Of a DNA stretch of 64,000 bases, positions 7,762-58,737 are shown piece by piece. How positions within the stretch are numbered: position 1 is the first letter of the stretch; every line of letters starts with the position of its first letter. The DNA lies in contig JAZNJA010000252.1 in assembly GCA_045577755.1 (NCBI GenBank), forward strand, positions 14,271 to 78,270. Reading direction: 5' to 3'. Origin of the DNA: Eubacteriales bacterium. GTDB taxonomy: Bacteria; Bacillota; Clostridia; Oscillospirales; CAG-272. The notes beneath the pieces are model-generated. The model did no database searches. It had not been told where the DNA came from and saw nothing but the letters and a program-made list of their open reading frames with translations. The position numbers and the translations under genes are program-made.

Positions 7762-9975
7762 ATGCGATCCATTTCCATCCGCGCTCTTGCTTCCCTGCTG
7801 GCACTCCTGATGCTGTTCTCCTGCGGCCTCATGGCCTGTGACAAGGGAAACACCCCCGACGACACCACCGACACGACTACCGAGGACACCACCAAGGCCC
7901 CCGAGACCGACGCCGACACCGAGGCACCCACCGAGGGTGAGACCGAGGCCGACACCGAGCCCGGTACCGAGGCTGACACCGAAGCCGGCACCGAGGACAC
8001 CACCGAGGCCGATACCGAGGGCGGCGACGAGCCTGCTCCCGAGATCCAGGTCATTACCATCGCCGAGGCGCTTGAGCTCTGCGGCAACGAGTCGGGCTTC
8101 ATCTCCACCGAGCGTTACTACATCCGCGGTATCATCCAGACCGTGACCAACGGCACCTACGGCGCTATGGTCATCGCCGACGAGACCGGCTCCATCTCGG
8201 TCTACGGCACCTACTCCGCTGACGGCTCCATCGGCTACGCCGAGTTCGAGTACAAGCCCGCCAAGGGCGACGAGGTGCTGCTCCACTGCATCCTCCAGAA
8301 CTACAACGGCACCAAGGAGGTCAAGAACGCCCGCCTGATCGAGTACAAGAACAACCAGGCCGACATCGACGTCTCCCAGTACAAGGAGGCCACCCTCTCC
8401 GAGGCCCGCGACGCCGAGAAGGGCGCCAACCTCAAGATCACGGGTACCGTCGCCCGCATCACCTACGCCACCGGCATGAAGCCCAGCGGCTACATCCTTG
8501 TCAATAACGGCGTGTCCATCTACGTCTACGACGGCGATTCCGCCCAGCGTGTCAGCATCGGTAACACCGTCACCGTAGCGGGTACCAAGGACTACTGGAT
8601 CCTTGACTCCGAGATCGACGGCGCACAGAAGTTCGGCTACAAGGGCTGTAACCAGCTCACCGATTGCATCCTGGTCTCCAACGACAATAAGGTCTCCGAG
8701 ATCGACTTCAGCGGCGTTTCCGAGATCACCGTCAAGGAGCTTCTGAACACCCCCGTCACCGAGGACATCACCACCCAGATCTTCAAGGTCAACGCTCTGG
8801 TCAAGGAGGTTCCCGGTAACGGCTTCACCAACTACTACTTCTTCGACATCGACGGCGAGACCGGCAACTACACCTACTCCCAGTGCAACGGTAATGATTT
8901 CGAGTGGCTCCGCGCCTTCGACGGCAAGATCTGCACCGTCTACATCACCGCTCTCAACGCCAAGTCCACCGGCACCTCCTGCAACTTCCGCTTCCTCCCC
9001 GTGGCCGTGATCGACGAGGGCTACAAGTTTGACACAAGCAAGGCTCCCGAGTACGTGCTGGAGTACCATATTATGGATCTCTTCAAGACCGAGTACACGG
9101 GCAACCCCTTCATGGAGGTCCCCACCTCTGTCTCCTCCTCTCTCCTGGGCTTTGAGAACGCTACCGTGACCTACAGCTCCTCCAATGAGGCTTCGGTCAA
9201 GTTCGTCAACACCGACGGCAAGCTGGTCATGGAGTGTCTCGCCGCAGGCAAGGCGACCGTCACCGTGACTGTGACCTACAATGGCAAGTCCGCCTCTGAG
9301 ACTCTGGAGATCACCGTGGTGGATCCCGCCGTCATGGATGCCACCAACGTGCAGGACGCTATCCAGTCCGAGCTGGGCGAGGAGATCTCGGTCAAGGGCA
9401 TCGTCGGTCCTTCCCTGGTCAACCGCAACGGCTTCTACCTCATCGACGAGACGGGTCTGATTGCCGTCATCGTCAACGACGTGGCCATCTTCGCCGATAT
9501 TGAGATCGGCCAGGAGATCGTCATCAAGGGTAAGCGGGACAAGTTCCACAACAATGAGGGCAGTCACGCGGGTCAGACCGCCATTACGGGGGCTACCGTC
9601 ATCGCCAACTACTACGGTCAGCACGCCTACGACGATTCCCTCTTCGTTACCGACAAGACTCTGGCTGATTTCCATAATCTGGACGTCACCGTGGACTACT
9701 CCACCACCGTCTTCGTGGTGAAGGCCACCGTCAACTTCCAGGAGACCGCCTACTACACCAACTGCAACCTGACCGACGCAAGCGGCAACAAGGTCACCCT
9801 GTACTGCTCCAGCGGTAAGCAGTACGGCTTCCTGAAGCAGTTCGCGGGTCAGGAGGTCACCCTGGAGCTGGCCGCCTGCAACTGGAATAACAAGACCTTC
9901 TGGGCCGGCTGTGTGCTGTCGGTCATTACCGAGGACGGGAAGGTCGTCAACAGTTTGAATTTCGATAACAACTGA
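7762..9975 (+). CDS. Large lipoprotein with acidic T/E/D linker, several OB-fold-like modules and an Ig-like segment; no catalytic domain seen
   Basis: Track start 7753 is GTG; ATG 7762 sits 6 nt after GAGGTG. Lipobox LFSCGLMAC. About 55-aa TE/TD-rich linker. Recurrent modules of the type found at N-termini of secreted nucleases (ITIAEALEL..YYIRGIIQTVTNGTYGAMVIADETGSISVYG; KITGTVARITY..GYILVNNGVSIYVYD; ISVKGIVGPSLVNRNGFYLIDETGLIAVIV). ATVTVTVTYNGKSASETLEITVVD looks Big_2-like. Confidence 0.7.
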   Translation: MRSISIRALASLLALLMLFSCGLMACDKGNTPDDTTDTTTEDTTKAPETDADTEAPTEGETEADTEPGTEADTEAGTEDTTEADTEGGDEPAPEIQVITIAEALELCGNESGFISTERYYIRGIIQTVTNGTYGAMVIADETGSISVYGTYSADGSIGYAEFEYKPAKGDEVLLHCILQNYNGTKEVKNARLIEYKNNQADIDVSQYKEATLSEARDAEKGANLKITGTVARITYATGMKPSGYILVNNGVSIYVYDGDSAQRVSIGNTVTVAGTKDYWILDSEIDGAQKFGYKGCNQLTDCILVSNDNKVSEIDFSGVSEITVKELLNTPVTEDITTQIFKVNALVKEVPGNGFTNYYFFDIDGETGNYTYSQCNGNDFEWLRAFDGKICTVYITALNAKSTGTSCNFRFLPVAVIDEGYKFDTSKAPEYVLEYHIMDLFKTEYTGNPFMEVPTSVSSSLLGFENATVTYSSSNEASVKFVNTDGKLVMECLAAGKATVTVTVTYNGKSASETLEITVVDPAVMDATNVQDAIQSELGEEISVKGIVGPSLVNRNGFYLIDETGLIAVIVNDVAIFADIEIGQEIVIKGKRDKFHNNEGSHAGQTAITGATVIANYYGQHAYDDSLFVTDKTLADFHNLDVTVDYSTTVFVVKATVNFQETAYYTNCNLTDASGNKVTLYCSSGKQYGFLKQFAGQEVTLELAACNWNNKTFWAGCVLSVITEDGKVVNSLNFDNN

Positions 9976-10023: not shown

Positions 10024-10358
10024 CAAATTTGGGTTTATCGGTGGGTTGCCACGTCCTTTGCCTTCTCCAGCGGAGAAGGGGGACCGCGAAGCGGTGGATG
10101 AGGAGAGCATTTGTAACCCAACTTATTGGGATTACAATTACGTTCCTACAACCATACGGATATGCTCGCCAAAATGGTTGATACAACTGTATTTTTGAGG
10201 TTTCTGAAATCCGAAAAGCGGTAGGAAAGTTAGCTGCTCACCCGGAACGCTGGCCTACAAGTGCTCTCCTCATCCACCGCTTCGCGGTCCCCCGCATCCG
10301 CACGCGGATGGCACCGCATGGGGAAGGCAAGGGAACGGACCGATAAACTGCAATTTCT
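10023..10358. repeat. Repeat-family copy A (long inverted-repeat type)
   Basis: Termini TCAAATTTGGGTTTATCGGTG (10023-) and ACCGATAAACTGCAATTT (-10356). Perfect 32-bp inverted repeat GGGGGACCGCGAAGCGGTGGATGAGGAGAGCA at 10078-10109 / 10262-10293 around a 152-bp AT-richer centre. Arms carry short GC hairpins (CCTTCTCC-AGC-GGAGAAGG, CCGC-GAA-GCGG). Confidence 0.8.
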
Positions 10359-14834: not shown

Positions 14835-15119
14835 ATAGTTGAGGTCAAATTTGGGTTTGGCGGTGGGTTTGTTAACCGAAACAAGGATAAAACCGCTATG
14901 CACGCGTACTCCTTCACCCGCCTGCGGGCGGGAGCTCCCTCCCGGAGGGAGCCTTAGGAGCGCGGGGCAAAATCACTTGTCGGATAACGAATTTCCGCGG
15001 GTCTGGGCAAAAGGCTCCCTCTCCGAGGGGGCTCCCGCGAAGCGGGTGGGGGAGTCATCACGAGAAGTGAGGCACTCTTTTCTGTCAGCCCGATAAACCC
15101 CAATATGAATCTCAACTAT
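14835..15119. repeat. Repeat-family copy B (long inverted-repeat type)
   Basis: Termini ATAGTTGAGGTCAAATTTGGGTTTGGCGGTG (14835-) and GCCCGATAAACCCCAATATGAATCTCAACTAT (-15119). Arms about 14911-14953 / 15013-15056 with hairpins CCCGCC-TGCG-GGCGGG, CTCCCTC-CCG-GAGGGAG, CCCGC-GAA-GCGGG. Core CCGCGAAGCGG(G)TGG shared with copy A. Confidence 0.8.
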
Positions 15120-21988: not shown

Positions 21989-22037
21989 GAGTATTCTCCT
22001 TGATTTTTCATGGATTTCCGTATTTACATACAGATAG

Positions 22038-22066
22038 ATTGTATCACATCAAGTCATATTTGTCAA
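22038..22066 (-). promoter_or_regulatory. SigA-type promoter, FMN_bind-like lipoprotein (and apbE)
   Basis: Minus strand: TTGACA (22061-22066), 17 nt, TACAAT (22038-22043). About 50 nt upstream of ATG 21988. Confidence 0.65.
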
Positions 22067-22113
22067 TGGCTTTCATATGACTTTTTTGGGCTATTTTTTG
22101 CATTTTGTAGGAA

Positions 22114-22608
22114 TCACCGAATCCGCACCCGTTTGACCGCGAAACTACCGCAAAGACCAACAAAAACACCCGATACGATGCCCGTGACCGCCAGTACGAT
22201 CATGTAGTAGCCCAGCCCCGCCGTGCTCAAAAGGAGCATGGCCATGAGGATCTGACCTACGTTATGGAGCACTCCTCCCGCCACGCTGACGCCCGTGACC
22301 GAAAAGAGCCCGGTCTTTTTCAGAAGTGACATCCCCAAAAGGCTCAAAAAACCTCCCGCCAGGCTGTAGGGGAGAGTGGCGGGATTGAAGATGAGGGAGA
22401 CGGCCAGGATACGGACGAAGGAAACGGCGGCGGCCTCCCTCCAGCCAAAGCGGTAGAGGATGAAGATGATGGCGACGTTGGGGAGTCCCAGCTTGATGCC
22501 CGGGACGGCGGTGGTCAGCGGGGGAAGCTGACTTTCCACCCAGGCCAGCACCATGGCGATGGCGGTACAGAGGCCCAGCAGGGCGAGCTTTTTGGCAGGG
22601 TGCTTCAT
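22114..22608 (-). CDS. Gx transporter family membrane protein (PF07456-like)
   Basis: Track ORF 22114-22917 trimmed to ATG 22606-22608 behind an AGGAGG RBS; the upstream 100 codons are a read-through of a repeat element. MKHPAKKLALLGL..., PGIKLGLPNV, VSVAGGVLHNVGQI are typical of this family. Confidence 0.8.
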   Translation of the reverse strand: MKHPAKKLALLGLCTAIAMVLAWVESQLPPLTTAVPGIKLGLPNVAIIFILYRFGWREAAAVSFVRILAVSLIFNPATLPYSLAGGFLSLLGMSLLKKTGLFSVTGVSVAGGVLHNVGQILMAMLLLSTAGLGYYMIVLAVTGIVSGVFVGLCGSFAVKRVRIR

Positions 22609-22649
22609 GGGGGGCCTCCTTTCGGGGAAATGGGGGATGAGTGGTTGTT

Positions 22650-22916
22650 GAAAATTTGGGCTTGTCGGTAAGATCTTATCTCGCGCGAAGCGCATATCGA
22701 GTCCCGCAGGGACATATCGAATGCCGTAAGGCATATATCGAGTCCCGCAGGGACATATCGACATACGACCTTTTGTCGATATACCCCCTTTGGGAGTTCG
22801 ATATGCCTTTGGCTCGATATGCCGCTCTCGCGGCTCGATATGCCGCTCTCGCGGCTCGATATGCCGCTCTCGCGGCTCGATATGCACCCTTCGGATGCGG
22901 GATAAACCCAAATTCA
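22650..22916. repeat. Repeat-family copy C (hairpin-array type, ATATCGA/TCGATAT heptamers)
   Basis: Termini TGAAAATTTGGGCTTGTCGGT (22650-) and CGGGATAAACCCAAATTCA (-22916). Four [hairpin + ATATCGA] units (heptamers at 22694, 22714, 22735, 22755), centre 22762-22775, six [TCGATAT + hairpin] units (22776, 22798, 22814, 22835, 22856, 22877). Confidence 0.85.
22814..22876. repeat. Perfect 3 x 21-bp tandem repeat inside copy C
   Basis: TCGATATGCCGCTCTCGCGGC at 22814-22834, 22835-22855 and 22856-22876. It translates as the artefactual HIEPRER x3 in the track ORF. Confidence 0.95.
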
Positions 22917-23330
22917 CGCGATCACATCGGGTGCCTCTTCCCCGCCGATGACCGTAATAATCACCTTATGGGGCAGGCAGACAATGCTCTCTCCCTCGCG
23001 GGAGATGGGCTTGTGGGCGGCGCAGATGCCGTCGGGACAGGTGGCGGTGGTGACGGTGGCTTTGCCATCCTTGATGACGAGGAGGTTCAGCTCCTCCCGG
23101 TTCGCCCCTGTGACGATCCTCACCTCGCGGTCCACCGACAAGGGATAGGTACCCATAAGGGTGCCGTCCACCTCTACCCGTACTGCGCTTCCCTCCCCCC
23201 GCAGGAGAAACAGGCAAAGCGCCGCGACGGCCACGGCGGCCAGGATAGCGGCGATGAGGAGCAGGTCGTTTCTGAACTTACGCCCACCGCCGTGGGCGGT
23301 GGGCTTGGTGGTTTGATTGGTTTGATTCAT
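22914..23330 (-). CDS. NusG domain II-containing protein (DUF1312-like), N-terminal TM anchor
   Basis: TM helix then VEVDGTLMGTYPLSVDREVRI...LNLLVIKDGKATVTTATCPDGICAAHKPISREGESIVCLPHKVIITV. Starts 5 nt after the rnfB stop. Confidence 0.75.
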   Translation of the reverse strand: MNQTNQTTKPTAHGGGRKFRNDLLLIAAILAAVAVAALCLFLLRGEGSAVRVEVDGTLMGTYPLSVDREVRIVTGANREELNLLVIKDGKATVTTATCPDGICAAHKPISREGESIVCLPHKVIITVIGGEEAPDVIA

Positions 23331-23334
23331 AGAA

Positions 23335-24192
23335 TTACTCGACGAAATCCTGATTGATCAGCTCGCTCGGATGGACGTCCTCGGGGATATCGGGGAAGAT
23401 AACCTGCTTCATGGCGCCCGTGGGACAGGCCTCGGCGCAGAGGCCGCAGCCCTTACACTTATCATAATCAATTTTCGCCAGATTATTCGTGACGGTGATG
23501 GCATCGTGGGGGCAGACCTTCTTGCACTTCATACAGCCGATGCAGGCGTTCTTACAGGCCTTACGGGCGTCGGCACCCTTATCGGTGTTGCTGCACATGA
23601 CGGCGGCCTCGGTCTCCTGGGGGATCATGGAGATGATGTGCTTGGGGCAGATGGTGGTGCAGAGACCGCAGCCCAGACAGCGGGAGGTGTCCACGTGGGC
23701 GATACCATCCTTCAGGCAGATGGCGTCGGCGGGACAGGCCTTGGCGCAATCCCCCAGACCCAGACAGCCGAAGCGGCAGGCGTCGGGACCGCCGTAGAGC
23801 ATGGAGGCGGCCTTACAGGTGGTGATGCCCTCGTAGGCGGCCTTCTTGGTGGTGGCCTCGCAGTTTCCGTTGCAGTGGACGTAGGCCACCACGTCCTCGG
23901 GGGCCTCGACCTCAATACCCAGGATCTCCCCCAGCTCCTTGGCGGTAGCCTCAGCGCCGGGAACGCAGAGATTGGGCTTGGCGGAGCCGTCGGCCACGGC
24001 GGCGGCGTAATCGTCACAGCCCTTGTAGCCGCAGGCGCCGCAGTTGACACCGGGGAGGCAGGCGCGGACGGCCTTGACCTTTTCGTCCTCCGGGACGGCG
24101 AAGAAGTGGGAGATGAGGGCCAGCAGGACGCCCAGGATCAGGGCGACACCCGCGACCACGCCAAAGGCGACGAGAATACTCATGAAATCCAT
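23335..24192 (-). CDS. rnfB: Rnf complex subunit B (polyferredoxin)
   Basis: N-terminal TM helix, CxxCxxxC-type N-terminal cluster (CGACGYKGC) and several CxxCxxCxxxCP 4Fe-4S motifs. Position after rnfA. Confidence 0.92.
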   Translation of the reverse strand: MDFMSILVAFGVVAGVALILGVLLALISHFFAVPEDEKVKAVRACLPGVNCGACGYKGCDDYAAAVADGSAKPNLCVPGAEATAKELGEILGIEVEAPEDVVAYVHCNGNCEATTKKAAYEGITTCKAASMLYGGPDACRFGCLGLGDCAKACPADAICLKDGIAHVDTSRCLGCGLCTTICPKHIISMIPQETEAAVMCSNTDKGADARKACKNACIGCMKCKKVCPHDAITVTNNLAKIDYDKCKGCGLCAEACPTGAMKQVIFPDIPEDVHPSELINQDFVE

Positions 24193-24807: not shown

Positions 24808-25523
24808 TACTGTGCATCTCCTTTCTCGGTGGATTCAGCGGCGGCGGGAGCCTCTTCGCAGCTGCCGGTCTGGCAGAGGGCGGCGTTGGGACAGCCCGCG
24901 CAGGAGAAGGACTTCTTCAGGGGAGCCTTGCCGCTGGTGATGGCGTAGACCAGGGCGATGAGCATACCGTAGACCAGCATACCGCCGGGGGCCTTGACCA
25001 GGAAGGCGATCTTGAATGGCTCCAGGGCGGGGATGGCGATCCCGGCGAAGGAGGCGTTGCCCAGGACCTCGCGGATAGTGGACATGGCCACCAGAGCCAG
25101 GGTGAAGCCGATGCCCATGCCGATGCCGTCCAGGGCGGACTTGCCCACGGAGTTCTTGCCCGCGAACATCTCTGCGCGGCCCAGGATGATGCAGTTGACC
25201 GTGATCAGGGGGAGGTAGACGCCGAGCATATCGTAAAGGGCGGGGAGATAGGCCTGGACGATCATCTGGACGATGGTGACGAAGCCCGCGATGACCACGA
25301 TATAGCAGGGGATGCGGACGCTGTCGGGGATGATCTTGCGGAGCAGGGAGATGAGGATGTTGGAGCAGACCAGCACCGCCAGAGCGGCGATGCCCATGCC
25401 GAAAGCACCCGCCACGTTGGTGGTGGTAGCCAGGGTCGGACAGGTACCCAGGATCAGGACGAACACGGGGTTCTCCTTGAGGATGCCCTTCCAGAGGACG
25501 GACAAGCAGCTATTCTTTTTCAT
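24807..25523 (-). CDS. rnfE: Rnf complex subunit E, with Cys-rich C-terminal tail
   Basis: NPVFVLILGTCPTLATT motif, polytopic. C-terminal SCAGCPNAALCQTGSCEE extension. Confidence 0.92.
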   Translation of the reverse strand: MKKNSCLSVLWKGILKENPVFVLILGTCPTLATTTNVAGAFGMGIAALAVLVCSNILISLLRKIIPDSVRIPCYIVVIAGFVTIVQMIVQAYLPALYDMLGVYLPLITVNCIILGRAEMFAGKNSVGKSALDGIGMGIGFTLALVAMSTIREVLGNASFAGIAIPALEPFKIAFLVKAPGGMLVYGMLIALVYAITSGKAPLKKSFSCAGCPNAALCQTGSCEEAPAAAESTEKGDAQ

Positions 25524-26698
25524 CAGTTGCTTCCTCCTTTCAGGGTGTTCAGGGCCTCGAAGGCTCGCTCGATGGCCTTCAGGTAGCCGTTGGTGGTGAG
25601 GGTCGCGCCCGCGATGGCGTCGACGTCCTTGTAGTCGGACTCGGTCTTGCCGTTAAACTGGCTGTAATAGGCTTCGTCGCCACAAAAAGCTCCGTATCCT
25701 CCGCTTTCCTCCTGAGAAACCGTGAGACACTTCAGTATTTTTCCATCGGGAGAAAGTAACACGCAAATTTCAATGGGGATTTCTTTGCCGGGCTGATACA
25801 TACTCTCGTCGCCGAAATAGGCAAAGCCGAGACCGTTGACGTTGATGAGATAGTTCCCGTCGGCGGTCATCTGGACTCTGGTAACATTCTTATTGATTCC
25901 GGTGTCGGTGGTATCCAGTGTAGTCTGAGACAAAGCAAGAGCGGCCTTGCTCTGAGCAAGGGTTGCATCCTCAGCAGACACGCCCTCCACCGTCACGTTG
26001 CATTCAGCATCCATGCCAATGAAACGATCCTCAATCACGTAGACGTATCCTGTACCGTTATCAGCCGCGTAGATAAAGTCAAAGTTGTTGTCGGCATCAG
26101 CGATGAAGAGCTTGGTGAACTTACCCTCACCGGCAGGCAGGGCGGCGGAGAGGTTATCGTTCAGGATCTGGGCGGGATCACGGAGATCCACCGAGCCGCC
26201 GCCCAGGATGATGGCGGTGTTCAGGGCGTCCTTGACAGCGTTCTTGTAGGCCTGGGTGGTCTTGGTGGCGCCCGAAACCGTGTCGGTGGCGTCCACGCCG
26301 GCGGCGTCCTTACCGATGAAATTGGCTCCGAAGGTCTTCTCGTAGCCCAGGGTTTCGGTGGAGGCGAGGCAGACGGTACCCGTGACGGTGCCGTCGGCGG
26401 ACACGCCGCACATGATGACAAAGCCTGAGCCGTAGCCCGTGGTGGTAAGGGTGACGACGTATCCGCCGTTCTTCTCCTTGTAGACCTCGGTTACCGTGGC
26501 GGGAAGCTCGTAGGAGGAGAGATCCATCTTCTCAAAGCTCTCACCCTCGGGCATGACCTGCAGGAGCGCCTCGTTGGCGGCGGCCTCCTGGTTCTTTTGG
26601 ATGATGGGAGCGGTGATGGAGTTGGTAAGGGCCAGCAGGATGGCTATGACGGCGCAGATGGAGACCAGCACGAGGGTGCTTGTTACAGACTTTTTCAT
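25523..26698 (-). CDS. rnfG: Rnf complex subunit G, duplicated (two FMN_bind domains)
   Basis: N-terminal TM anchor. Two flavinylation-type motifs, DTVSGATKTT (about aa 160) and DAIAGATLTT (about aa 370). About twice the usual RnfG length. Confidence 0.88.
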   Translation of the reverse strand: MKKSVTSTLVLVSICAVIAILLALTNSITAPIIQKNQEAAANEALLQVMPEGESFEKMDLSSYELPATVTEVYKEKNGGYVVTLTTTGYGSGFVIMCGVSADGTVTGTVCLASTETLGYEKTFGANFIGKDAAGVDATDTVSGATKTTQAYKNAVKDALNTAIILGGGSVDLRDPAQILNDNLSAALPAGEGKFTKLFIADADNNFDFIYAADNGTGYVYVIEDRFIGMDAECNVTVEGVSAEDATLAQSKAALALSQTTLDTTDTGINKNVTRVQMTADGNYLINVNGLGFAYFGDESMYQPGKEIPIEICVLLSPDGKILKCLTVSQEESGGYGAFCGDEAYYSQFNGKTESDYKDVDAIAGATLTTNGYLKAIERAFEALNTLKGGSN

Positions 26699-35716: not shown

Positions 35717-35965
35717 TCAAATTTGGGTTTGGCGGTGTGTTCTTGCGCCAAAGGCGCATATCGAGCCGCGAAAGCGGCATATCGAGCCGAAGGCCCATGC
35801 CGGAGGCATATCGAACACCCGAAGGGTGTATATCGACAAAAACTCCGGGTCGATATGTCCCTTCGGGACTCGATATGTGCCTTGTAGCACTCGATATATC
35901 CCTTCGGGATTCGATATGCCCCCTGCGGGGGCGTGACGGGCTTCGCCCGATAAACCCCAATTTCA
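35717..35965. repeat. Repeat-family copy D (hairpin-array type, ATATCGA/TCGATAT heptamers)
   Basis: Termini TCAAATTTGGGTTTGGCGGTG (35717-) and CCCGATAAACCCCAATTTCA (-35965). ATATCGA at 35758, 35779, 35808, 35830; centre 35837-35849; TCGATAT at 35850, 35870, 35891, 35911. Every inter-heptamer segment is self-complementary. Confidence 0.85.
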
Positions 35966-53496: not shown

Positions 53497-56400
53497 TTAC
53501 TGTCCGAACTGCCCCTCGTACAGAGCGGCGATGCTCTCGGGGATGTCGTACTTGGCGAACAGGCAGCCCTTGAAGGCGTTCTTGTTCACCATGGTCATGC
53601 TCTCCGAGAAGGTGATGTCACGCAGGGCGAGGCAAGCGCCGAAGGCGTTGTTCTCAACCGTGACGAGTCCCTCGGGGAAGGTGACGGCCTTCAGGGAGGT
53701 ACAGGTGCTGAACGCGTTCTTTTCGATGGTGTTGAGCAGACCCATGTCGTTGAAGTCGATCTCCTTGAGAGAGGTGCAACCGTTGAAGGCGTCGGCGGGG
53801 ATGACCGTGAGGCTTGCGGGGATGTGGATGTAGGTCAGGGCGGTGCAGGTCTCGAAGGCACCGACGCCCATGGTGGTCAGGGTATCGGGGAGGCTGACGC
53901 TGTTCAGGAACAGGAAGCCCTTGAACGCGCCCTTCTCAATGGTGGTGGTACCCTCGCCAAGAGTCAGGGAGTTGAGGATGAGGGCCGCGCCGTTGAAGCT
54001 GTCGTTTTCCACGGTCTTCATGGCGGTGACAGTCACGTCCTTAACGCGGGAGTTGCCGAAGACGTGGGTATAGCCCTTGGACACGTCGGAGGGGGAGGCA
54101 CCCACGAAGGGCAGAGTCGCGGTCTTCAGATCGGAGCAATCCGAGAACGCGTCCTTACCGACGGAGGCAAGCCCCTTCGGCAGGGTGATCTCTTCAAACT
54201 CACATCCGGAGAAGGCCTTCTCGCCGATGGTGAGGAGGGATTCGGGGAGGACCAGGTGGCTGCCGTACACCGAGGTATTGGCGAAGGCGGAAGCACCGAT
54301 GGAGTTCAGGGGGAGACTGACCAGGTTGACGTACTCCAGGTATTCGCTGTTGCTGCCCATGCCGTCGGGGATCTGCGTAACCGAGGCGGGCAGATCCAGA
54401 GTAGCCAGTCTTGCGCAGTCGGCGAAGGCGTAGGTACCGATCTTCTTGACGGCGGTAGCGGAGAGATCCAGGGCATAGAGGGAATCGCAGTTGCGGAAGG
54501 CCTCGTCACCCAGGGTCGTCACGGCTCCGGGAAGGGTAATGTCGACAAGGCTTACACAGTCACGGAAGGCACCGTTTCCGATGGTATGGAGAGTGTCGGG
54601 CAGGTAGACGTACTCCAGGGAGCTTTCAGCGAAGGCGTAGTCCGAGAGGGTATTGAGTTGAGACTCGAACATCACGGAAGTGAGGTTGGGGCAGTCCTTG
54701 AAGGCGTAGGCGCCGATGTTCTCGATGCTGCGGAGGGTTTCTACGTTGGCCAGGCTGGAACAGCCCTCGAAGCAGTTATTGCCGATGGTCTTGACACGGC
54801 TGAGGTCAATGGCGGCCAGCTGGTTGACGTTCTTGAAGGCGCCCTCACCCATAACGGTGACCGAATCCATGCCGTTGATCTCGGTCAGGCTCTTACAGTC
54901 AGCGAAGGCGTAAGCACCCAGGCTCGTGACGCTGGCGGGAAGGGTGATGGATCTCAGATTCATGCCCCGGAAGGCGGAATCGGCGACGGCGGTCATGGGA
55001 GACGCGATACGCAGGTCGCGGACCGACGCGCAATCCTTGAAGGACTCGGCGCTCAGGTCGGTCATGACGGTCACGGTGACGGTGATGGACTTTGCGGAAT
55101 CGTCACAGTAGAAGATATCGCTGAGGGATTCACGATTGGAGGACTTAAGGGTGGTTCCCGTGAAGGGGACCGTGATGGATTCGATTTTGGTGATATCGGC
55201 GAAGGCGTTCTTGCCCACCAGGGTGGCGGAGGCAGGGACGACGACCTCGGTGAAGCTGACACAGCCGCGGAATGCTTCCCTTCCAATGGTCTTCAGGCTG
55301 TTGCTGAAGGTGACGTTGGGCAGGAGCTTGCATTCCTTGAAAGCGCCGTTGCCGATCTCGGTGACCGCGATCAGGCCCTCGAAGTCGGTCAGGCGGACAC
55401 AGCCGCGGAAGGCGTTCTTGCCGATCTTGTCAACGGAGGAGGCATCCTTGACCGACTGGAGTTTCACACAGCCGTCGAAGGCGCCCTCTGAGATGGTCTT
55501 GATACCGCCGGGCAGATAGACGGACATGAGGCTCAGCTCCTTGCAGGCGTTCTTGCCCAGGGTATCGCAAGCGCTGAGGGTCAGGGTGGCGATTCCGTCG
55601 GCACCGCGCAGGGAGCCGCGGTTGACGGTCTTCATGGCGGTGATCTCCACCGTCAGCTTCTTGGTGGCGTCGCCACAGCTGACCATACCTGTCAGAGAGC
55701 GGTTGTTACTGTTCTCCGGGGTAGTGCCCGTGAAGGGGACCGAAATGGTCTCCAGGTTGGGCAGATCGCGGAAGGCTCCCTGGCCGATGGTGGTAACGGA
55801 CACGGGAACCGTAACGTTCTTGAAGAGGGTACATCCGCGGAAGGCGTTGGCACCGATGGTCTTCAAAGACGGGGAGAAGCTGACGTCGTCGAGCTTTACA
55901 CAAGAGCGGAAGGCACTGCTGCCGATCTCGGTGACCTGATCCAGTCCCACGACCATGGTCAGATTCTTACAATCCATGAAGGCGCCGTTACCGATGCTCT
56001 TGAGGGAGTCGAAGCTCACGGTGGTGAGGGACGAGCACTCGCGGAAGGCGTTGTCGCCCAGCAGCTCGACGTCCTCCGCACCGATGATCTCCTGCAGCTT
56101 GGTACAGCCGTAGAAGGCATTCGCGCCGATCTCGAGAACGTGCTTCGGAATGGAAACCGTCTTGACAAAGGAGAGGTCACGGAAGGCATTATCATGGATC
56201 TCGGTAACGCCGTCACCCAGATGGATGGCGGAGCACCAGTTGAAGTCATCGAAGGAATGCTCACCGATGAGGGTGTTACCCGTTACGGTCAGGGTGATGC
56301 CGTTCTTCTTACTGTCGTACTTCATCACGTCCTTCAGGGATCCCTGCGCTGCCTCCTCGGGCGTGTGGCCCAGATAGGGGATGTTCAGGGTAACGACGTT

Positions 56401-58737
56401 CTGGCAATAATCGAAGGCGTGCTTGCCGATATAGGTCACGCTGTTGGGCACGGTGATGCTGCGGAAGGCGTTACAGCGGTTGAAGGCACCGTCACCGATG
56501 GTCTTCAGAGACTGAGAGAGCTCGATGTCCTGCAGCTGCAGACAGCCGTTGAAGGCGTTGTTGCCGATCTCGGTGACCTTCTCCAAGCCAACCAGGGAGG
56601 TCAGCTTTTCGCAGCCACGGTAAGCGCCGTCGGGGATGGACGTGATCGCGGTGGCAGTCAGATCCACCGATAGGATGCCGGACTCGCGGAAGACGTCGTT
56701 GCCGAGGGTCTCCAGGGTGTCGGGCAGGACCAGCTCCTTGAGGCGGGTACAGCCTCGGAAGGCGTGGCGGTTCATCGTAGTCAGACCCGTATTGAGGGAG
56801 ACCTTCTGGAGGAAATCGCAATTGAGGAAGGCACCTCTGTCCACGGTCTTGACCGACTCAGGGAGGGTCACGCCCGTGATGTTATCACCGAAGAAGGCGA
56901 AGAGGTCGATCTCGGTGACGGTCTTGCCGTCGATGGAATCGGGGATCTTACAGTCGGTCAGCTTATCGTTGAAGCGTCCCGCGATGGCGATGCCGCCGTC
57001 GTCCAGGTCACGGTAGAAGTAGTTCTTATCGTAGCCGTCGTAGCGCTCGTAGAACAGGGTACAGGACAAGAGGACGAAGATGGCAGCCAGGGCGTATACC
57101 TTACAGGCGTTCCGAACGGGACGGATGAAGTAGTAGTAGCCCTTGCGGCGGGTCTTGCGGCGATGGACCGCGCGGATGGCGGCGATGATGATGGTAGGAA
57201 TGGTGACCGCCCACAGGCCCAGAAGCCCCATAATGATCCAGGTCATGAGCTGGTTCTTGATGAGGGTGTACTGGTAGATATAAGCGACCACGGCGGTGGC
57301 GGTCAGGTTGAGGAAGCCCGAAATGAAGGGCATATACCGCAGGCGGCGGTCTCTTCTTCTGGCCAGGTCCTCCTTGAAGGCGGCGTTGAGCTGCTCCACG
57401 ATGTGGCCCATCTCATGGTCAATGAGGAGGTTCTTGATCTCATAGGGCGTATACTTGCGGATATCGTTGAGGTAGCGGATGCCGCTCGCCCGCAGGACCT
57501 CGGCGTCGGCGTCCGAGAAGATACCGCCCTGCTTCCGCTCCAGGGGTACCTTATAGAGGTACTTGCGGATCTTCCCCCAGACGGACTCCAGGTGTTGGTT
57601 CTGTCTGGCCTCCGCCAGCATGGCCAGCTGCATGAGCTTAATGGCGTTGCTGGAGCGATGGAGGAAGGCGGTCTGGAAATCCATCTCGCTGAGCAGCCAG
57701 ATCTCCTCCAGGCAGACGGGACCCGTACGGTCCTCGGTGCGTCTGGACTCCACGAAACGGCAGACCCGCTCCAGATCCGCGTTCCATTGGACCTCAGTAT
57801 ACTCATGGTTCAGGGGATAGTCGGCGTTCTTGAGTCCGTAGCCCCGTCTTCTTCCCTTCTTCTTACAGGCGGCGCGCTCTTTGAGGAGGGCATTCGCCTC
57901 CTCGCCGTGGGCGATACGCCAGATATACTTCAAGGGGATGCGGGACAGGAAACCGTACTCCTCCACGCAATAGCGATCCATGACCAGGAAGCGATCCGTC
58001 TTCTTGGACTTGCCCAGATTGCACTCCATGCGGTTGAGCAGCACCGCTGAGTTATTGAGCACGGGAGGCGTGCGGCGACCCATGTAGAGACCAGCCTCCG
58101 AGATGGAGGGGATCGGCTCGACGGGCATCGCGTAGACGTCGACGGTATCGCGGAAGCTGATGTCATCGTTGGGACCCACATAGATCTGGGGACCCGCGGC
58201 GGCTTTCGCCTCGGCATCTGCCAGCACCTGGCTCAGGACGTTGACCAGCTTGGTACCGACCGTGGATAGGGCCTCGGCCTCGGCGGCCTTTCTTCCCTTC
58301 CGCTTTTTCTTTTTCGCGACGGTACTCGCCACAGAGGCGGGCGGGGTCAGCAGGATCTCGGCGGGGACGGGCTCGGCGGGCTCCTCTTCGGCAGTCTCCG
58401 CGGCCGCGTCGGGTGCGGCGGCTTCGGCGGCGGGGGTCTCGGCAGGAGCCGACGGGGCATCATTGGCGGTGGGAGCGGCGGCTTCGACGGAGGGAGCCTC
58501 CGCGGCCTGAGCGCCGTTTTCGGGGGTCTCGGCGGGAGCCATCTCCTCGAGCTCCTTCAGCAGCTGATTCATCTGCTCAAGCAGCTCGTCCAGGGCCTTA
58601 TCGGTCTCAGCCTCCTCCCCCAGAGGGAGGTCCGCCGCCTGATTCTCCGCCTCGGCGGCCTCAGGAGCGATGGGCTGCTTGACCTCCGCGGCGGGACGCT
58701 TTTGGGCGGGGGCGCGGTTCTTTTTCTTCTTACTCAT
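53497..58737 (-). CDS. 1746-aa transmembrane protein: about 470-aa cytoplasmic N-domain, three TM helices, about 1150-aa extracellular BspA-type LRR array
   Basis: Lys-rich N-terminus, A/E/P low-complexity region, HhH-like LRASGIRYLNDIRKYTPYEIKNL. TM1/TM2 then HRRKTRRK, then TM3 (positive-inside rule puts the LRRs outside). Dozens of LRR_5 units (...IGxxAFxxCxxLxxVxLP...). Confidence 0.75.
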   Translation of the reverse strand: MSKKKKNRAPAQKRPAAEVKQPIAPEAAEAENQAADLPLGEEAETDKALDELLEQMNQLLKELEEMAPAETPENGAQAAEAPSVEAAAPTANDAPSAPAETPAAEAAAPDAAAETAEEEPAEPVPAEILLTPPASVASTVAKKKKRKGRKAAEAEALSTVGTKLVNVLSQVLADAEAKAAAGPQIYVGPNDDISFRDTVDVYAMPVEPIPSISEAGLYMGRRTPPVLNNSAVLLNRMECNLGKSKKTDRFLVMDRYCVEEYGFLSRIPLKYIWRIAHGEEANALLKERAACKKKGRRRGYGLKNADYPLNHEYTEVQWNADLERVCRFVESRRTEDRTGPVCLEEIWLLSEMDFQTAFLHRSSNAIKLMQLAMLAEARQNQHLESVWGKIRKYLYKVPLERKQGGIFSDADAEVLRASGIRYLNDIRKYTPYEIKNLLIDHEMGHIVEQLNAAFKEDLARRRDRRLRYMPFISGFLNLTATAVVAYIYQYTLIKNQLMTWIIMGLLGLWAVTIPTIIIAAIRAVHRRKTRRKGYYYFIRPVRNACKVYALAAIFVLLSCTLFYERYDGYDKNYFYRDLDDGGIAIAGRFNDKLTDCKIPDSIDGKTVTEIDLFAFFGDNITGVTLPESVKTVDRGAFLNCDFLQKVSLNTGLTTMNRHAFRGCTRLKELVLPDTLETLGNDVFRESGILSVDLTATAITSIPDGAYRGCEKLTSLVGLEKVTEIGNNAFNGCLQLQDIELSQSLKTIGDGAFNRCNAFRSITVPNSVTYIGKHAFDYCQNVVTLNIPYLGHTPEEAAQGSLKDVMKYDSKKNGITLTVTGNTLIGEHSFDDFNWCSAIHLGDGVTEIHDNAFRDLSFVKTVSIPKHVLEIGANAFYGCTKLQEIIGAEDVELLGDNAFRECSSLTTVSFDSLKSIGNGAFMDCKNLTMVVGLDQVTEIGSSAFRSCVKLDDVSFSPSLKTIGANAFRGCTLFKNVTVPVSVTTIGQGAFRDLPNLETISVPFTGTTPENSNNRSLTGMVSCGDATKKLTVEITAMKTVNRGSLRGADGIATLTLSACDTLGKNACKELSLMSVYLPGGIKTISEGAFDGCVKLQSVKDASSVDKIGKNAFRGCVRLTDFEGLIAVTEIGNGAFKECKLLPNVTFSNSLKTIGREAFRGCVSFTEVVVPASATLVGKNAFADITKIESITVPFTGTTLKSSNRESLSDIFYCDDSAKSITVTVTVMTDLSAESFKDCASVRDLRIASPMTAVADSAFRGMNLRSITLPASVTSLGAYAFADCKSLTEINGMDSVTVMGEGAFKNVNQLAAIDLSRVKTIGNNCFEGCSSLANVETLRSIENIGAYAFKDCPNLTSVMFESQLNTLSDYAFAESSLEYVYLPDTLHTIGNGAFRDCVSLVDITLPGAVTTLGDEAFRNCDSLYALDLSATAVKKIGTYAFADCARLATLDLPASVTQIPDGMGSNSEYLEYVNLVSLPLNSIGASAFANTSVYGSHLVLPESLLTIGEKAFSGCEFEEITLPKGLASVGKDAFSDCSDLKTATLPFVGASPSDVSKGYTHVFGNSRVKDVTVTAMKTVENDSFNGAALILNSLTLGEGTTTIEKGAFKGFLFLNSVSLPDTLTTMGVGAFETCTALTYIHIPASLTVIPADAFNGCTSLKEIDFNDMGLLNTIEKNAFSTCTSLKAVTFPEGLVTVENNAFGACLALRDITFSESMTMVNKNAFKGCLFAKYDIPESIAALYEGQFGQ

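What the first reader, a model, noticed from the sequence alone, without database searches (positions are those of the whole stretch)
22650..22916. Second hairpin-array copy (C) inside the rnf-to-apbE gene string, with unit-number expansion and stem-preserving substitutions
Same termini and ATATCGA/TCGATAT grammar as copy D, but with 4 left and 6 right units. The right side includes a perfect 3 x 21-bp tandem (TCGATATGCCGCTCTCGCGGC).

The hairpin segments differ from copy D in sequence yet remain self-complementary. For example, GTCCC-GCA-GGGAC here compares with GTCCC-TTC-GGGAC in D, and GCGC-GAA-GCGC compares with GCGCC-AAA-GGCGC. The conserved properties are therefore the heptamer and the ability to form hairpins, not the hairpin sequence. 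That is the signature of a structure-selected element that grows by unit duplication.

The element separates the NusG_II gene from the Gx-transporter gene. From my memory of other genomes, these two are normally adjacent partners.
Basis: seen in the sequence. Interest (0 to 1): 0.68.

Follow-up and report, generated by a model that had tools for sequence, protein, structure and literature searches.

The report
Modular hairpin repeat element in operon
The finding is real: it is one copy of a high-copy, apparently undescribed family of small fold-back DNA repeats in uncultured gut Clostridia, with conserved ends and an interior built of a fixed 7-base word alternating with ever-changing mini-hairpins, inserted between two normally adjacent genes.

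Summary
Window 22652-22915 holds 4 ATATCGA and 6 TCGATAT heptamers, separated by self-complementary segments, and a perfect 21-bp x3.6 tandem.

It is one of four elements in the window (A 10025-10356, B 14847-15106, C, D 35719-35963). All share about 17-21-nt polar ends: AAATTTGGGTTTRTCGG ... CCGATAAACCCCAATTT.

The family is multi-copy in about 20 gut Clostridia/Oscillospiraceae MAGs and also occurs in a phage contig. Interiors differ completely between copies but always fold back.

A more distant relative has an empty NusG_II/Gx site with a 23-nt spacer. Two close relatives carry the same ATATCGA element, differing from the window by whole-unit indels of 42 and 41 nt. Other relatives carry the same ends at the same site with unrelated interiors.

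Across 38 distinct inter-heptamer segments, stem positions 1-4 are 95-100% Watson-Crick with 3-4 pair types each.

I found no target-site duplication, transposase, Rfam match, terminator or promoter.

Best reading: a non-autonomous MITE/REPIN-like fold-back element that inserts without duplication and evolves by gain and loss of units. Selection for structure is not separated from palindrome-maintaining mutation. The mobilising enzyme is unknown.

The parts
22652..22668 (+). Left terminus AAATTTGGGCTTGTCGG, 2 mismatches to the family consensus AAATTTGGGTTTATCGG
   Evidence: consensus from 37 copies
22683..22693 (+). First mini-hairpin GCGC-GAA-GCGC, directly 5' of the first heptamer
   Evidence: read
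22694..22761 (+). Left arm: 4 x ATATCGA (22694, 22714, 22735, 22755) alternating with hairpins GTCCC-GCA-GGGAC, ATGCC-GTAA-GGCAT and GTCCC-GCA-GGGAC
22762..22775 (.). Central loop CATACGACCTTTTG. The innermost heptamers pair as ATATCGAC/GTCGATAT.
22776..22883 (-). Right arm: 6 x TCGATAT (22776, 22798, 22814, 22835, 22856, 22877) alternating with hairpins ACCCCC-TTT-GGGAGT, GCC-TTT-GGC and 3 x GCCGC-TCTC-GCGGC
22811..22885 (.). Perfect 21-bp tandem, 3.6 copies. It is a recent expansion: the orthologous elements L294 and L295 have one copy of this unit.
22884..22898 (+). Last mini-hairpin GCACCC-TTC-GGATGC. It has one C.A mismatch on +, which is a U.G wobble on the mRNA-sense strand.
   Evidence: same sequence in L294/L295
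22899..22915 (-). Right terminus; reverse complement GAATTTGGGTTTATCCC, 3 mismatches to consensus
22914..22916 (-). TGA stop codon of the NusG_II gene, lying inside the right terminus
   Evidence: the same overlap occurs in 7 of 37 family copies
22609..22651 (-). Tail between the left terminus and the Gx start codon. It holds the RBS (GGAGG) of the Gx gene. Part of it is absent from the empty site of L167.
22914..23330 (-). NusG_II domain gene (138 aa), upstream neighbour
   Evidence: PF07009, E 2.4e-26
22114..22608 (-). Hpre_diP_synt_I / Gx-transporter family gene (164 aa), downstream neighbour
   Evidence: PF07456, E 1.5e-34
35719..35963 (+). Copy D: same ends, 4+4 ATATCGA units, between the DUF4317 and GFO_IDH_MocA genes. 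The stop codon of the upstream gene lies in the right terminus.
10025..10356 (+). Copy A: same ends, unrelated interior (51-nt inverted arms plus an AT-rich loop), between a terminator and a promoter
14847..15106 (+). Copy B: same ends, another hairpin-rich interior, between convergent genes. A further 9-bp flanking inverted repeat CTCAACTAT is present.

Best explanation
Copy C is a member of a high-copy family of 95-350-bp non-coding fold-back repeat elements (MITE/REPIN-like) found in uncultured gut Oscillospirales.

A member has two conserved but non-identical ends, consensus TTC|AAATTTGGGTTTRTCGGTG ... CACCGATAAAC(C/T)(C/G)CAATTT. Between them lies an interchangeable interior that is always a long imperfect palindrome.

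In C the interior is a mirrored array of 20-21-bp units. Each unit is the fixed word Y-ATATCGA-R plus a 9-15-nt perfect mini-hairpin.

Shown:
- The element was gained at the NusG_II/Gx junction. A more distant relative has only a 23-nt spacer there.
- It sits exactly at the stop codon.
- It changes by gain or loss of whole units.
- The hairpins vary but keep their pairing.
- Interiors of different types occupy the same site in close relatives, and the same types recur at unrelated loci.

Inferred:
- It spreads by a non-duplicative, sequence-targeted mechanism, inserting 3' of TTC. This is the style of single-strand HUH tyrosine transposases (IS200/IS605, RAYT/TIRYT) or of a site-specific recombinase. 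The enzyme would be supplied in trans and was not found.
- Heptamers serve as slippage and recombination joints.
- Hairpin pairing is kept by palindrome correction and/or by selection for a folded single strand.
- In the rnf-apbE transcript the element forms a very stable structure without terminating transcription, so it is tolerated. It may alter mRNA processing or stability.
For: Family and copy number:
- There are 8 terminus matches in the window against 0.04 expected.
About 88 come from about 20 Clostridia/Oscillospiraceae MAGs, with up to 15 contigs per MAG, and many hits lie at contig ends.
- 35 complete copies were extracted outside the window.
- Two copies lie in a phage contig that encodes terminase, portal and capsid.

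Ends:
- The right end was not used in the search, yet 14 of its positions are conserved in 34-37 of 37 copies.
- Position 6 is G at the right end and T at the left.

Gain at this site:
- L167/L168 have an empty 23-nt spacer.

Unit dynamics:
- The window differs from L294 by indels of 42 and 41 nt, giving 6+4 against 4+2 heptamers.
- The 21-bp tandem is perfect.

Hairpins:
-.

Interior turnover at fixed sites:
- The C site carries ATATCGA, AGATACA, AATGAAT and AAAGTTTT-type interiors.
- L098 and L135 share a site and ends but differ in interior.
- The sites flanking DUF4317 vary among contigs that encode an identical protein. One site is empty in 7 contigs and occupied in 2.

Recurrence of interior types at other loci and genomes:
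-.

Insertion style:
- No target-site duplication appears at any boundary offset.
- TTC lies 5' of the left end in about 65-78% of copies. The right flank is GAA in 35%, or A.
- The right terminus overlaps the stop codon of an inward-reading gene in 7 of 37 copies.

No regulatory signal:
- No terminator or promoter lies in C.
- There is no Rfam family match.
Against: - No transposase or recombinase was found. None lies beside the elements: Pfam of 120 ORFs within 3.5 kb gave nothing relevant, nor did further ORFs.
- No full-length autonomous element with these ends was seen.
- Different interiors at the same site could reflect conversion between copies or allelic exchange between strains, rather than transposition.
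- Several comparisons rest on short metagenomic contigs that may be chimeric at repeats (L158, L294, L300, L303).
- Left-end conservation is inflated because the left end was the search pattern.
- At the C and DUF4317 sites, extra tails of about 20 nt accompany the ends, so exact boundaries and the TTC target remain uncertain.
Confidence: 0.6

Rival explanations
1. A cis-acting structured RNA selected at the RNA level. The operon transcript would present AUAUCGA words between stable hairpins, as a scaffold or sponge for an RNA-binding protein or nuclease, or as an mRNA stabiliser that tunes Gx/ApbE expression relative to rnf.
For: - The fold is very stable.
- Stem positions covary while the heptamer is invariant, even between genomes.
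- Loops are often GNRA, UUCG or GNA-like.
- About 13-15 of 38 copies lie just upstream of an RBS in one orientation.
- Four single stem substitutions in C, D and L295 give G.U on the mRNA-sense strand.
Against: - Both strands fold about equally: 22 against 15 copies, p 0.046. G.U pairs are only about 5% of pairs.
- Copies A and B lie after terminators or between convergent genes.
- Orientation relative to transcription is not fixed.
- The heptamer type at the C site is not conserved between close relatives.
- Both the heptamer and its complement are present, so the words would pair rather than stay single-stranded.
- There is no Rfam match.
- Counter-examples to the wobble bias exist in L125 and L139.
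Confidence: 0.12
2. A double-stranded DNA protein-binding array. The heptamers, phased every 20-21 bp (two helical turns) and mirrored in the two arms, would be binding sites. Candidates are transposase sites like the multiple end sites of Tn7 or Mu, or ribbon-helix-helix heptad arrays like those bound by omega of pSM19035. The comparison with these systems is a lead from memory.
For: - All heptamers are perfect: 10 of 10 in C and 8 of 8 in D.
- The flanking Y and R bases are constrained.
- Spacing is 20-21 bp.
- The same heptamer occurs in a second architecture without the family ends, in Oscillospiraceae-like contigs L206, L232 and L292.
- Plain tandem 7-bp arrays occur in sister elements.
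Against: - At least six different heptamers occur behind the same ends. That would need six different binding specificities.
- Many family members have no heptamers at all.
- No cognate gene is linked.
- The idea does not explain why the spacers must be perfect hairpins.
Confidence: 0.1
3. An invertible switch (inverton). Conserved inverted repeats would be recognised by a master invertase that flips the interior to control neighbouring genes.
For: - Conserved inverted ends flank 100-300 bp upstream of genes at many loci.
- The centre of L110 is the reverse complement of that of L071 and L144 relative to the polar ends.
- C's left-arm modules match the reverse complement of D's right arm (repeat I1).
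- L305 has opposite polarity at a site shared with L296.
Against: - The interiors are near-palindromes, so flipping changes little.
- No promoter or terminator lies inside C or A.
- Copies lie between convergent genes and inside an essential-looking operon.
- No invertase gene is nearby.
- Flip-flop is expected anyway from recombination between long inverted arms.
Confidence: 0.05
4. An ancient, immobile intergenic spacer, or an assembly artefact.
For: Several relatives are occupied at the same site. The MAG contigs are fragmentary.
Against: - An empty site exists in L167/L168.
- Strains encoding an identical DUF4317 protein show presence/absence.
- There are dozens of copies per MAG and copies in a phage.
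- Independent assemblies agree (L156 with L157; L159 to L166).
Confidence: 0.02

Closest known systems
REP / REPIN elements mobilised by RAYTs, and the TIR families linked to TIRYT tyrosine transposases (PMC3116915, PMC2817692, PMC3733652)
   Same: Short, non-coding, intergenic and high-copy. They fold back as a hairpin and make no target-site duplication. A short conserved word lies at one flank (GTAG there, TTC here). The enzyme is expected to be single-copy and to act in trans. Some sister copies contain GTAGGG-tagged hairpins, and some have a complete hairpin at each end (L001, L129, L163).
   Different: No RAYT or TIRYT was found. The ends are 17-21 nt and unlike any REP. The elements are 2-10 times longer. 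The interior is interchangeable and can be a heptamer/hairpin array. Copy C itself has no GTAG.
Bacterial MITEs that are co-transcribed and fold in mRNA (Correia/NEMIS of Neisseria, ERIC, RUP; review PMC3184786)
   Same: Delimited by terminal inverted repeats, 100-350 bp, non-coding, inserted between genes of operons, and forming long stem-loops.
   Different: Those elements make target-site duplications and have conserved interiors derived from a parent IS. Here there is no duplication, no parent IS was found, and interiors are unrelated between copies.
BOX elements of Streptococcus pneumoniae (boxA-(boxB)n-boxC); from my own knowledge
   Same: Modular, with a variable number of an internal unit between conserved end modules, and a stable predicted secondary structure.
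   Different: The boxB unit is a conserved 45-bp sequence. Here only 7-9 nt of each unit are conserved and the rest is a free-sequence hairpin. The two arms are mirrored.
IS200/IS605-derived palindrome-associated elements (PATEs); from my own knowledge
   Same: No inverted-repeat requirement for duplication-free insertion 3' of a short target word. Hairpins at the ends. Polarity.
   Different: Those ends are not complementary to each other. No TnpA was found in the DNA sampled here.
Integron attC sites; from my own knowledge
   Same: Conserved short ends, an interior conserved as structure rather than sequence, a polarity-defining mismatch in the folded form, and exchangeable content.
   Different: The R''/R' consensus (RYYYAAC/GTTRRRY) is not met. 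There is no integrase and there are no cassette ORFs. The elements are far longer and multi-branched.

Membership tests
MITE (DDE-transposase derived) | Terminal inverted repeats delimiting a short non-coding multi-copy element | tested here: met
MITE (DDE-transposase derived) | Target-site duplication flanking each copy | tested here: not met
   No direct repeat is enriched at any of 100 boundary offsets in 36 copies.
MITE (DDE-transposase derived) | Autonomous IS with the same inverted repeats in the same genomes | tested here: inconclusive
   None was found in about 0.7 Mb of loci. Whole genomes could not be searched.
REP/REPIN-RAYT | GTAG (or CGTC) tag at one end of the palindrome | tested here: not met
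   Copy C and the family ends lack it. GTAGGG hairpins occur only inside some sister copies. The criterion is taken from PMC3733652.
REP/REPIN-RAYT | A RAYT (Y1 HUH) gene flanked by the repeats | tested here: inconclusive
   tblastn gave no hit in the sampled loci, and Pfam of neighbouring ORFs gave none. The genomes are incomplete.
IS200/IS605-type non-autonomous element | No duplication and a conserved short target word 5' of the left end | tested here: met
   (TTC in about 65-78% of copies)
IS200/IS605-type non-autonomous element | A separate subterminal hairpin at each end | tested here: inconclusive
   Present only in a subset (L001, L129, L163). In C the two ends pair with each other.
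Any Rfam RNA family | Score at or above the gathering threshold | tested here: not met
   0 hits in the window. The best sub-threshold hit is Gut-1, at 20 bits against 50.
Intrinsic terminator | GC-rich hairpin followed by a T run | tested here: not met
   0 sites in 22000-23500
Inverton | Orientation-dependent promoter or terminator between inverted repeats, with both orientations present in a population | tested here: inconclusive
   No promoter or terminator was found. Flip-flop is seen only between different loci and strains. Read-level data are not available.
Integron attC | RYYYAAC ... GTTRRRY core sites with an integrase and cassettes | tested here: not met
   The ends read GATAAAC ... 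GTTTATC, and the neighbours are housekeeping genes.

The most novel reading that the evidence does not exclude
The conserved polar ends are the sites of an unidentified single-strand (HUH-like) or site-specific recombinase. This enzyme would both insert the element and swap interiors between the hundred or so copies of a genome: a 'hairpin-cassette exchange' system. The heptamers would be its secondary cleavage or strand-transfer sites. The mini-hairpins would be palindromic footprints generated de novo at those sites. The second architecture with the arms in reverse order (L206, L232, L292) would be a re-opened circular intermediate.
Probability: 0.12. Interest if true: 0.8.

Novelty: new variant of a known kind. 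Interest (0 to 1): 0.55.

Why it matters
If the family is what it seems, it is an abundant and active class of small mobile DNA in poorly known gut anaerobes.
- It breaks metagenome assemblies, since many contigs end in it.
- It sits inside core operons and phage genomes.
- It may mark rearrangement points.
- It offers a natural experiment on how palindromes are built and kept: a fixed 7-9-nt word, free-sequence hairpins and unit-number change.

The turnover of interiors at fixed sites, seen among strains with identical neighbouring proteins, points to a recombination activity that has not been characterised. Finding that enzyme could add a new tool-like recombinase or HUH nuclease.

For annotation, the consensus ends allow these regions to be masked and the breakpoints to be interpreted.

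Tried and rejected
- **Rfam.** Searched at gathering and at permissive thresholds. Nothing was found.
- **tRNA/tmRNA.** None.
- **Terminator and promoter scans of C and A.** No site was found in 22000-23500 that lies in C. In A's region the only full-consensus sites lie outside the element.
- **Viral scan with the terminus pattern.** 44 of 45 hits were chance singletons. One real phage contig, L001, was kept.
- **Metagenome scan with three heptamers.** No family member was found. Most hits were unrelated ATATCGATAT arrays. It did uncover the terminus-less architecture.
- **Phage database BLAST.** No useful relatives.
- **Search for an autonomous element.** The ORF between termini in L093 is a lipoprotein.
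- **Pfam of neighbouring ORFs.** 120 neighbouring ORFs, further flanked ORFs and the window's large genes were scanned. No transposase was found. The exception is an unrelated IS3 element inserted into one copy, L293.
- **tblastn with IS200, IS608 and RAYT sequences typed from memory.** Nothing. This is a weak test.
- **Target-site duplication scan.** Negative.
- **Extended flanking inverted repeat.** Significant (p <= 0.002) only in L093 and window B, with a weaker signal in L106b (p ~0.02).
- **Strand asymmetry of folding.** Marginal.
- **GC skew for replication direction.** Uninformative.
- **Literature searches.** Searches for the terminus string and for MITE/REPIN work in Clostridia or Firmicutes found no description.
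- **Ideas considered and dropped.** CRISPR array, type III toxin-antitoxin repeat RNA, retron msd, integron attC and riboswitch or leader. Each lacks its defining gene or motif.

Full report
**1. The observation**

Window 22652-22915 reads as described. Four ATATCGA lie on the + strand at 22694, 22714, 22735 and 22755. Six TCGATAT follow at 22776, 22798, 22814, 22835, 22856 and 22877. The window holds 27 ATATCGA sites against 5.7 expected. The two-heptamer pattern occurs 6 times against 0.01 expected.

Tandem Repeats Finder reports 22811-22885 as period 21, 3.6 copies and 100% matches. The quoted hairpins are in the sequence. As a single strand the region folds far better than shuffles: RNA -134.8 kcal/mol, z -7.45; DNA z -7.74.

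The neighbours, all on the minus strand, are RnfC, D, G, E, A and B, then NusG_II (22914-23330), the element, an Hpre_diP_synt_I/Gx protein (22114-22608), an unknown 325-aa protein and ApbE.

**2. What defines the element is its ends**

A 17-mer, AAATTTGGGTTTATCGG, matches 8 times in the window with up to 3 mismatches, against 0.04 expected. The matches form four convergent pairs: A 10025-10356, B 14847-15106, C 22652-22915 and D 35719-35963. Only C and D contain ATATCGA arrays. A and B have other hairpin-rich interiors.

About 88 come from about 20 MAGs of gut Clostridia, Eubacteriales, Oscillospiraceae and Acutalibacteraceae. Up to 15 contigs per MAG were hit, very often at contig ends, as expected for a repeat that breaks assemblies.

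I extracted 35 further complete copies of 95-353 bp. The right end was not part of the search pattern, yet it is conserved at 14 positions in 34-37 of 37 copies. It differs systematically from the left end: position 6 is G rather than T, and AAATTGCAG is a frequent variant. The element therefore has polarity. The ends are conserved in sequence rather than covarying.

Two copies lie in intergenic gaps of a phage contig that encodes terminase, portal and capsid.

**3. Interiors**

All interiors fold back, but they fall into unrelated types:
- An 'A-type' with GCCTTCCCCAGCGGGGAAGG...GGATGAGGAGAGC.
- GTAGGG-tagged hairpins.
- AAAGGGACTTTT-type.
- Mirrored heptamer arrays.

The heptamer arrays use ATATCGA (window C and D, L125, L139, L294, L295), GTGAAGT (L001), AGATACA (L062, L083, L114, L151, L156, L293), AATTCGT (L064, L131, L137), AATGAAT (L129, L163) or AAATGCA (L132). 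Some are plain tandem 7-mers. Some carry one hairpin. Some carry a hairpin after every heptamer.

Each heptamer type recurs at several loci and in several genomes.

**4. The heptamer/hairpin grammar**

I took 43 inter-heptamer segments, from C, D and L139 and from a second architecture in L199, L206, L232 and L292. Of these, 39 form a Watson-Crick stem of at least 4 bp anchored exactly at the heptamer borders. In shuffles the figure is 2.5%.

Among the 38 distinct segments, paired positions 1-4 are 95-100% Watson-Crick with three or four pair types each. Permuting the partners gives 31-48% and never reaches the observed value in 5000 trials.

**5. Orthologous sites**

*A site gained.* In L167/L168 (NusG_II 69% aa identity) the two genes are 23 nt apart.

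*Unit dynamics.* L294 and L295 carry the same ATATCGA element after NusG_II. The window differs from L294 by two indels of 42 nt (2 x 21) and 41 nt (20 + 21), giving 6+4 heptamers against 4+2. The remaining differences are a few point changes. The triple 21-bp unit is single-copy in both relatives.

*Turnover at the C site.* Other relatives carry the same ends with different interiors. These are an AAAGTTTT-type (L154), AGATACA (L156, L157, and L293, where an IS3-family IS has landed in it) and AATGAAT (L163, whose flanks are 93-97% identical to loci with yet another spacer). Decayed spacers also occur.

*Turnover elsewhere.* The same pattern is seen for L098 against L135.

*The DUF4317 gene.* It is clearest around this gene. 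Ten contigs encode the identical protein. The downstream site is empty in seven and occupied by two different interiors in two. The upstream site shows three interiors, one of them in opposite polarity, plus a remnant.

*Caveat.* Some of these short contigs may be chimeric at repeats.

**6. Insertion style**

No target-site duplication appears at any of 100 boundary offsets. TTC precedes the left end in about two thirds to three quarters of copies. GAA or A follows the right end.

In 7 of 37 copies, C and D among them, the stop codon of an inward-reading gene overlaps the right terminus by 1-3 nt. In 14 of 37 it lies within 12 nt. No such overlap occurs at the left end. The left end is often 10-40 nt from the RBS of an outward-reading gene.

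These features fit a duplication-free, word-targeted insertion of the IS200/IS605, RAYT or TIRYT style (PMC3733652), or a site-specific recombinase. They do not fit a DDE transposase.

I found no enzyme. Pfam of 120 ORFs within 3.5 kb of elements gave none, nor did other ORFs. A weak tblastn test was negative. No long version of the element was seen.

**7. RNA or DNA?**

Top and bottom strands fold about equally (22 against 15 copies, p 0.046), and only about 5% of pairs are G.U. Copies occur after terminators and between convergent genes.

No Rfam family matches. C contains no terminator or promoter. This favours palindromy at the DNA or single-stranded-DNA level.

A few substitutions that give G.U on the sense strand are too few to decide, and there are counter-examples.

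Flip-flop of centres and modules relative to the polar ends is what recombination between inverted arms would give.

**8. Verdict**

The finding is real and more interesting than a single odd spacer. It is a member of a large family of fold-back repeats with conserved polar ends and interchangeable, modular interiors. I found no description of the family in the searches I could run.

It was inserted at the NusG_II stop codon. It now evolves by unit gain and loss.

Still open are the enzyme, whether the heptamers are recognition sites, and whether hairpin pairing is selected or self-maintained.

Noticed in passing
L206:419-600, L292:1296-1470, L232:1166-1330, L199:839-915 and 1427-1500: A second architecture uses the same heptamer but lacks the family ends. 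The two arms are in reverse order: [TCGATAT+hairpin]x4, a centre (GCCCTGCGGGGCGAGAGGGGATTTGGATC), then [ATATCGA+hairpin]x3-4. The L292 copy lies between the rpiB stop codon and its terminator, in an Oscillospiraceae-like organism. It could be a circular permutation of the C/D type.
   Followed up: partly
L293:580-1715: An IS3-family IS (HTH_Tnp_1 + rve) is inserted into the TGTATCT array of the AGATACA-type element at the orthologous NusG_II site. The element serves as a landing pad for another mobile element.
   Followed up: partly
L093:340-640: An outer inverted repeat, GTAACTATTCAGCC...GGCTGAATAGTTAC, encloses one family copy. It is itself inserted into the left terminus of a neighbouring copy, with an 8-bp duplication ATTTGGGT. 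The same outer motif flanks one side of copies in L077, L122, L298 and L299. This may be a separate DDE-type MITE or a longer subfamily end.
   Followed up: partly
L159-L166 spacer (e.g. L159:2921-3028) and L132:~1440-1863: A TTTTGCA x4 array (ATTTTGCATTTTGCATTTTGAATTTTGCATTCT) occurs without clear termini in the NusG_II/Gx spacer of several relatives. It also forms the right arm of the element at the D-orthologous site in the same MAG.
   Followed up: no
L299:1-1500: A CRISPR array lies directly upstream of the variable site before DUF4317. It has the repeat GTCGCAATTCGCGCTTGTGGCTGTGGTGCAAG, at least 5 units, and sits next to a Cas12f1-like_TNB/TnpB-type gene.
   Followed up: no
L296-L304, downstream of DUF4317 (e.g. 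L296:2640-2950): A consensus promoter plus a long structured leader precedes a leucyl-tRNA synthetase-like gene. It looks like a T-box leader but was not tested.
   Followed up: no
L177:3360-3500, L183:598-770 and other Ga0307488/Ga0307489 contigs: Unrelated arrays of the full palindrome ATATCGATAT, or of ATATCGA+TACTGTCATCTCCC, recur every 21 nt in environmental contigs.
   Followed up: no
window 25523-26698 (-): The RnfG homologue is unusually long (391 aa) and has two FMN_bind stretches.
   Followed up: no
window 7850-8043; 53497-58737; 59601-63962: There is a coding 12-nt (TE/PE-rich) repeat, a 1746-aa BspA-type LRR protein and a 1453-aa MBG/Ig-repeat protein. The many direct-repeat families come from these genes.
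   Followed up: no
alignment A1 (ORFs within 3.5 kb of elements in L047-L105): 6 of the 120 neighbouring ORFs are ECF-type sigma-70 factors and 4 are Xre-type HTH proteins. I did not compare this with the genomic background.
   Followed up: no
L300, L303 against L296 (upstream of the element before DUF4317); L294 downstream flank: The same element interior is joined to different flanking genes in different contigs, and the first 10 nt of the terminus vary with the flank. This reflects either rearrangements at the elements or chimeric assemblies.
   Followed up: no
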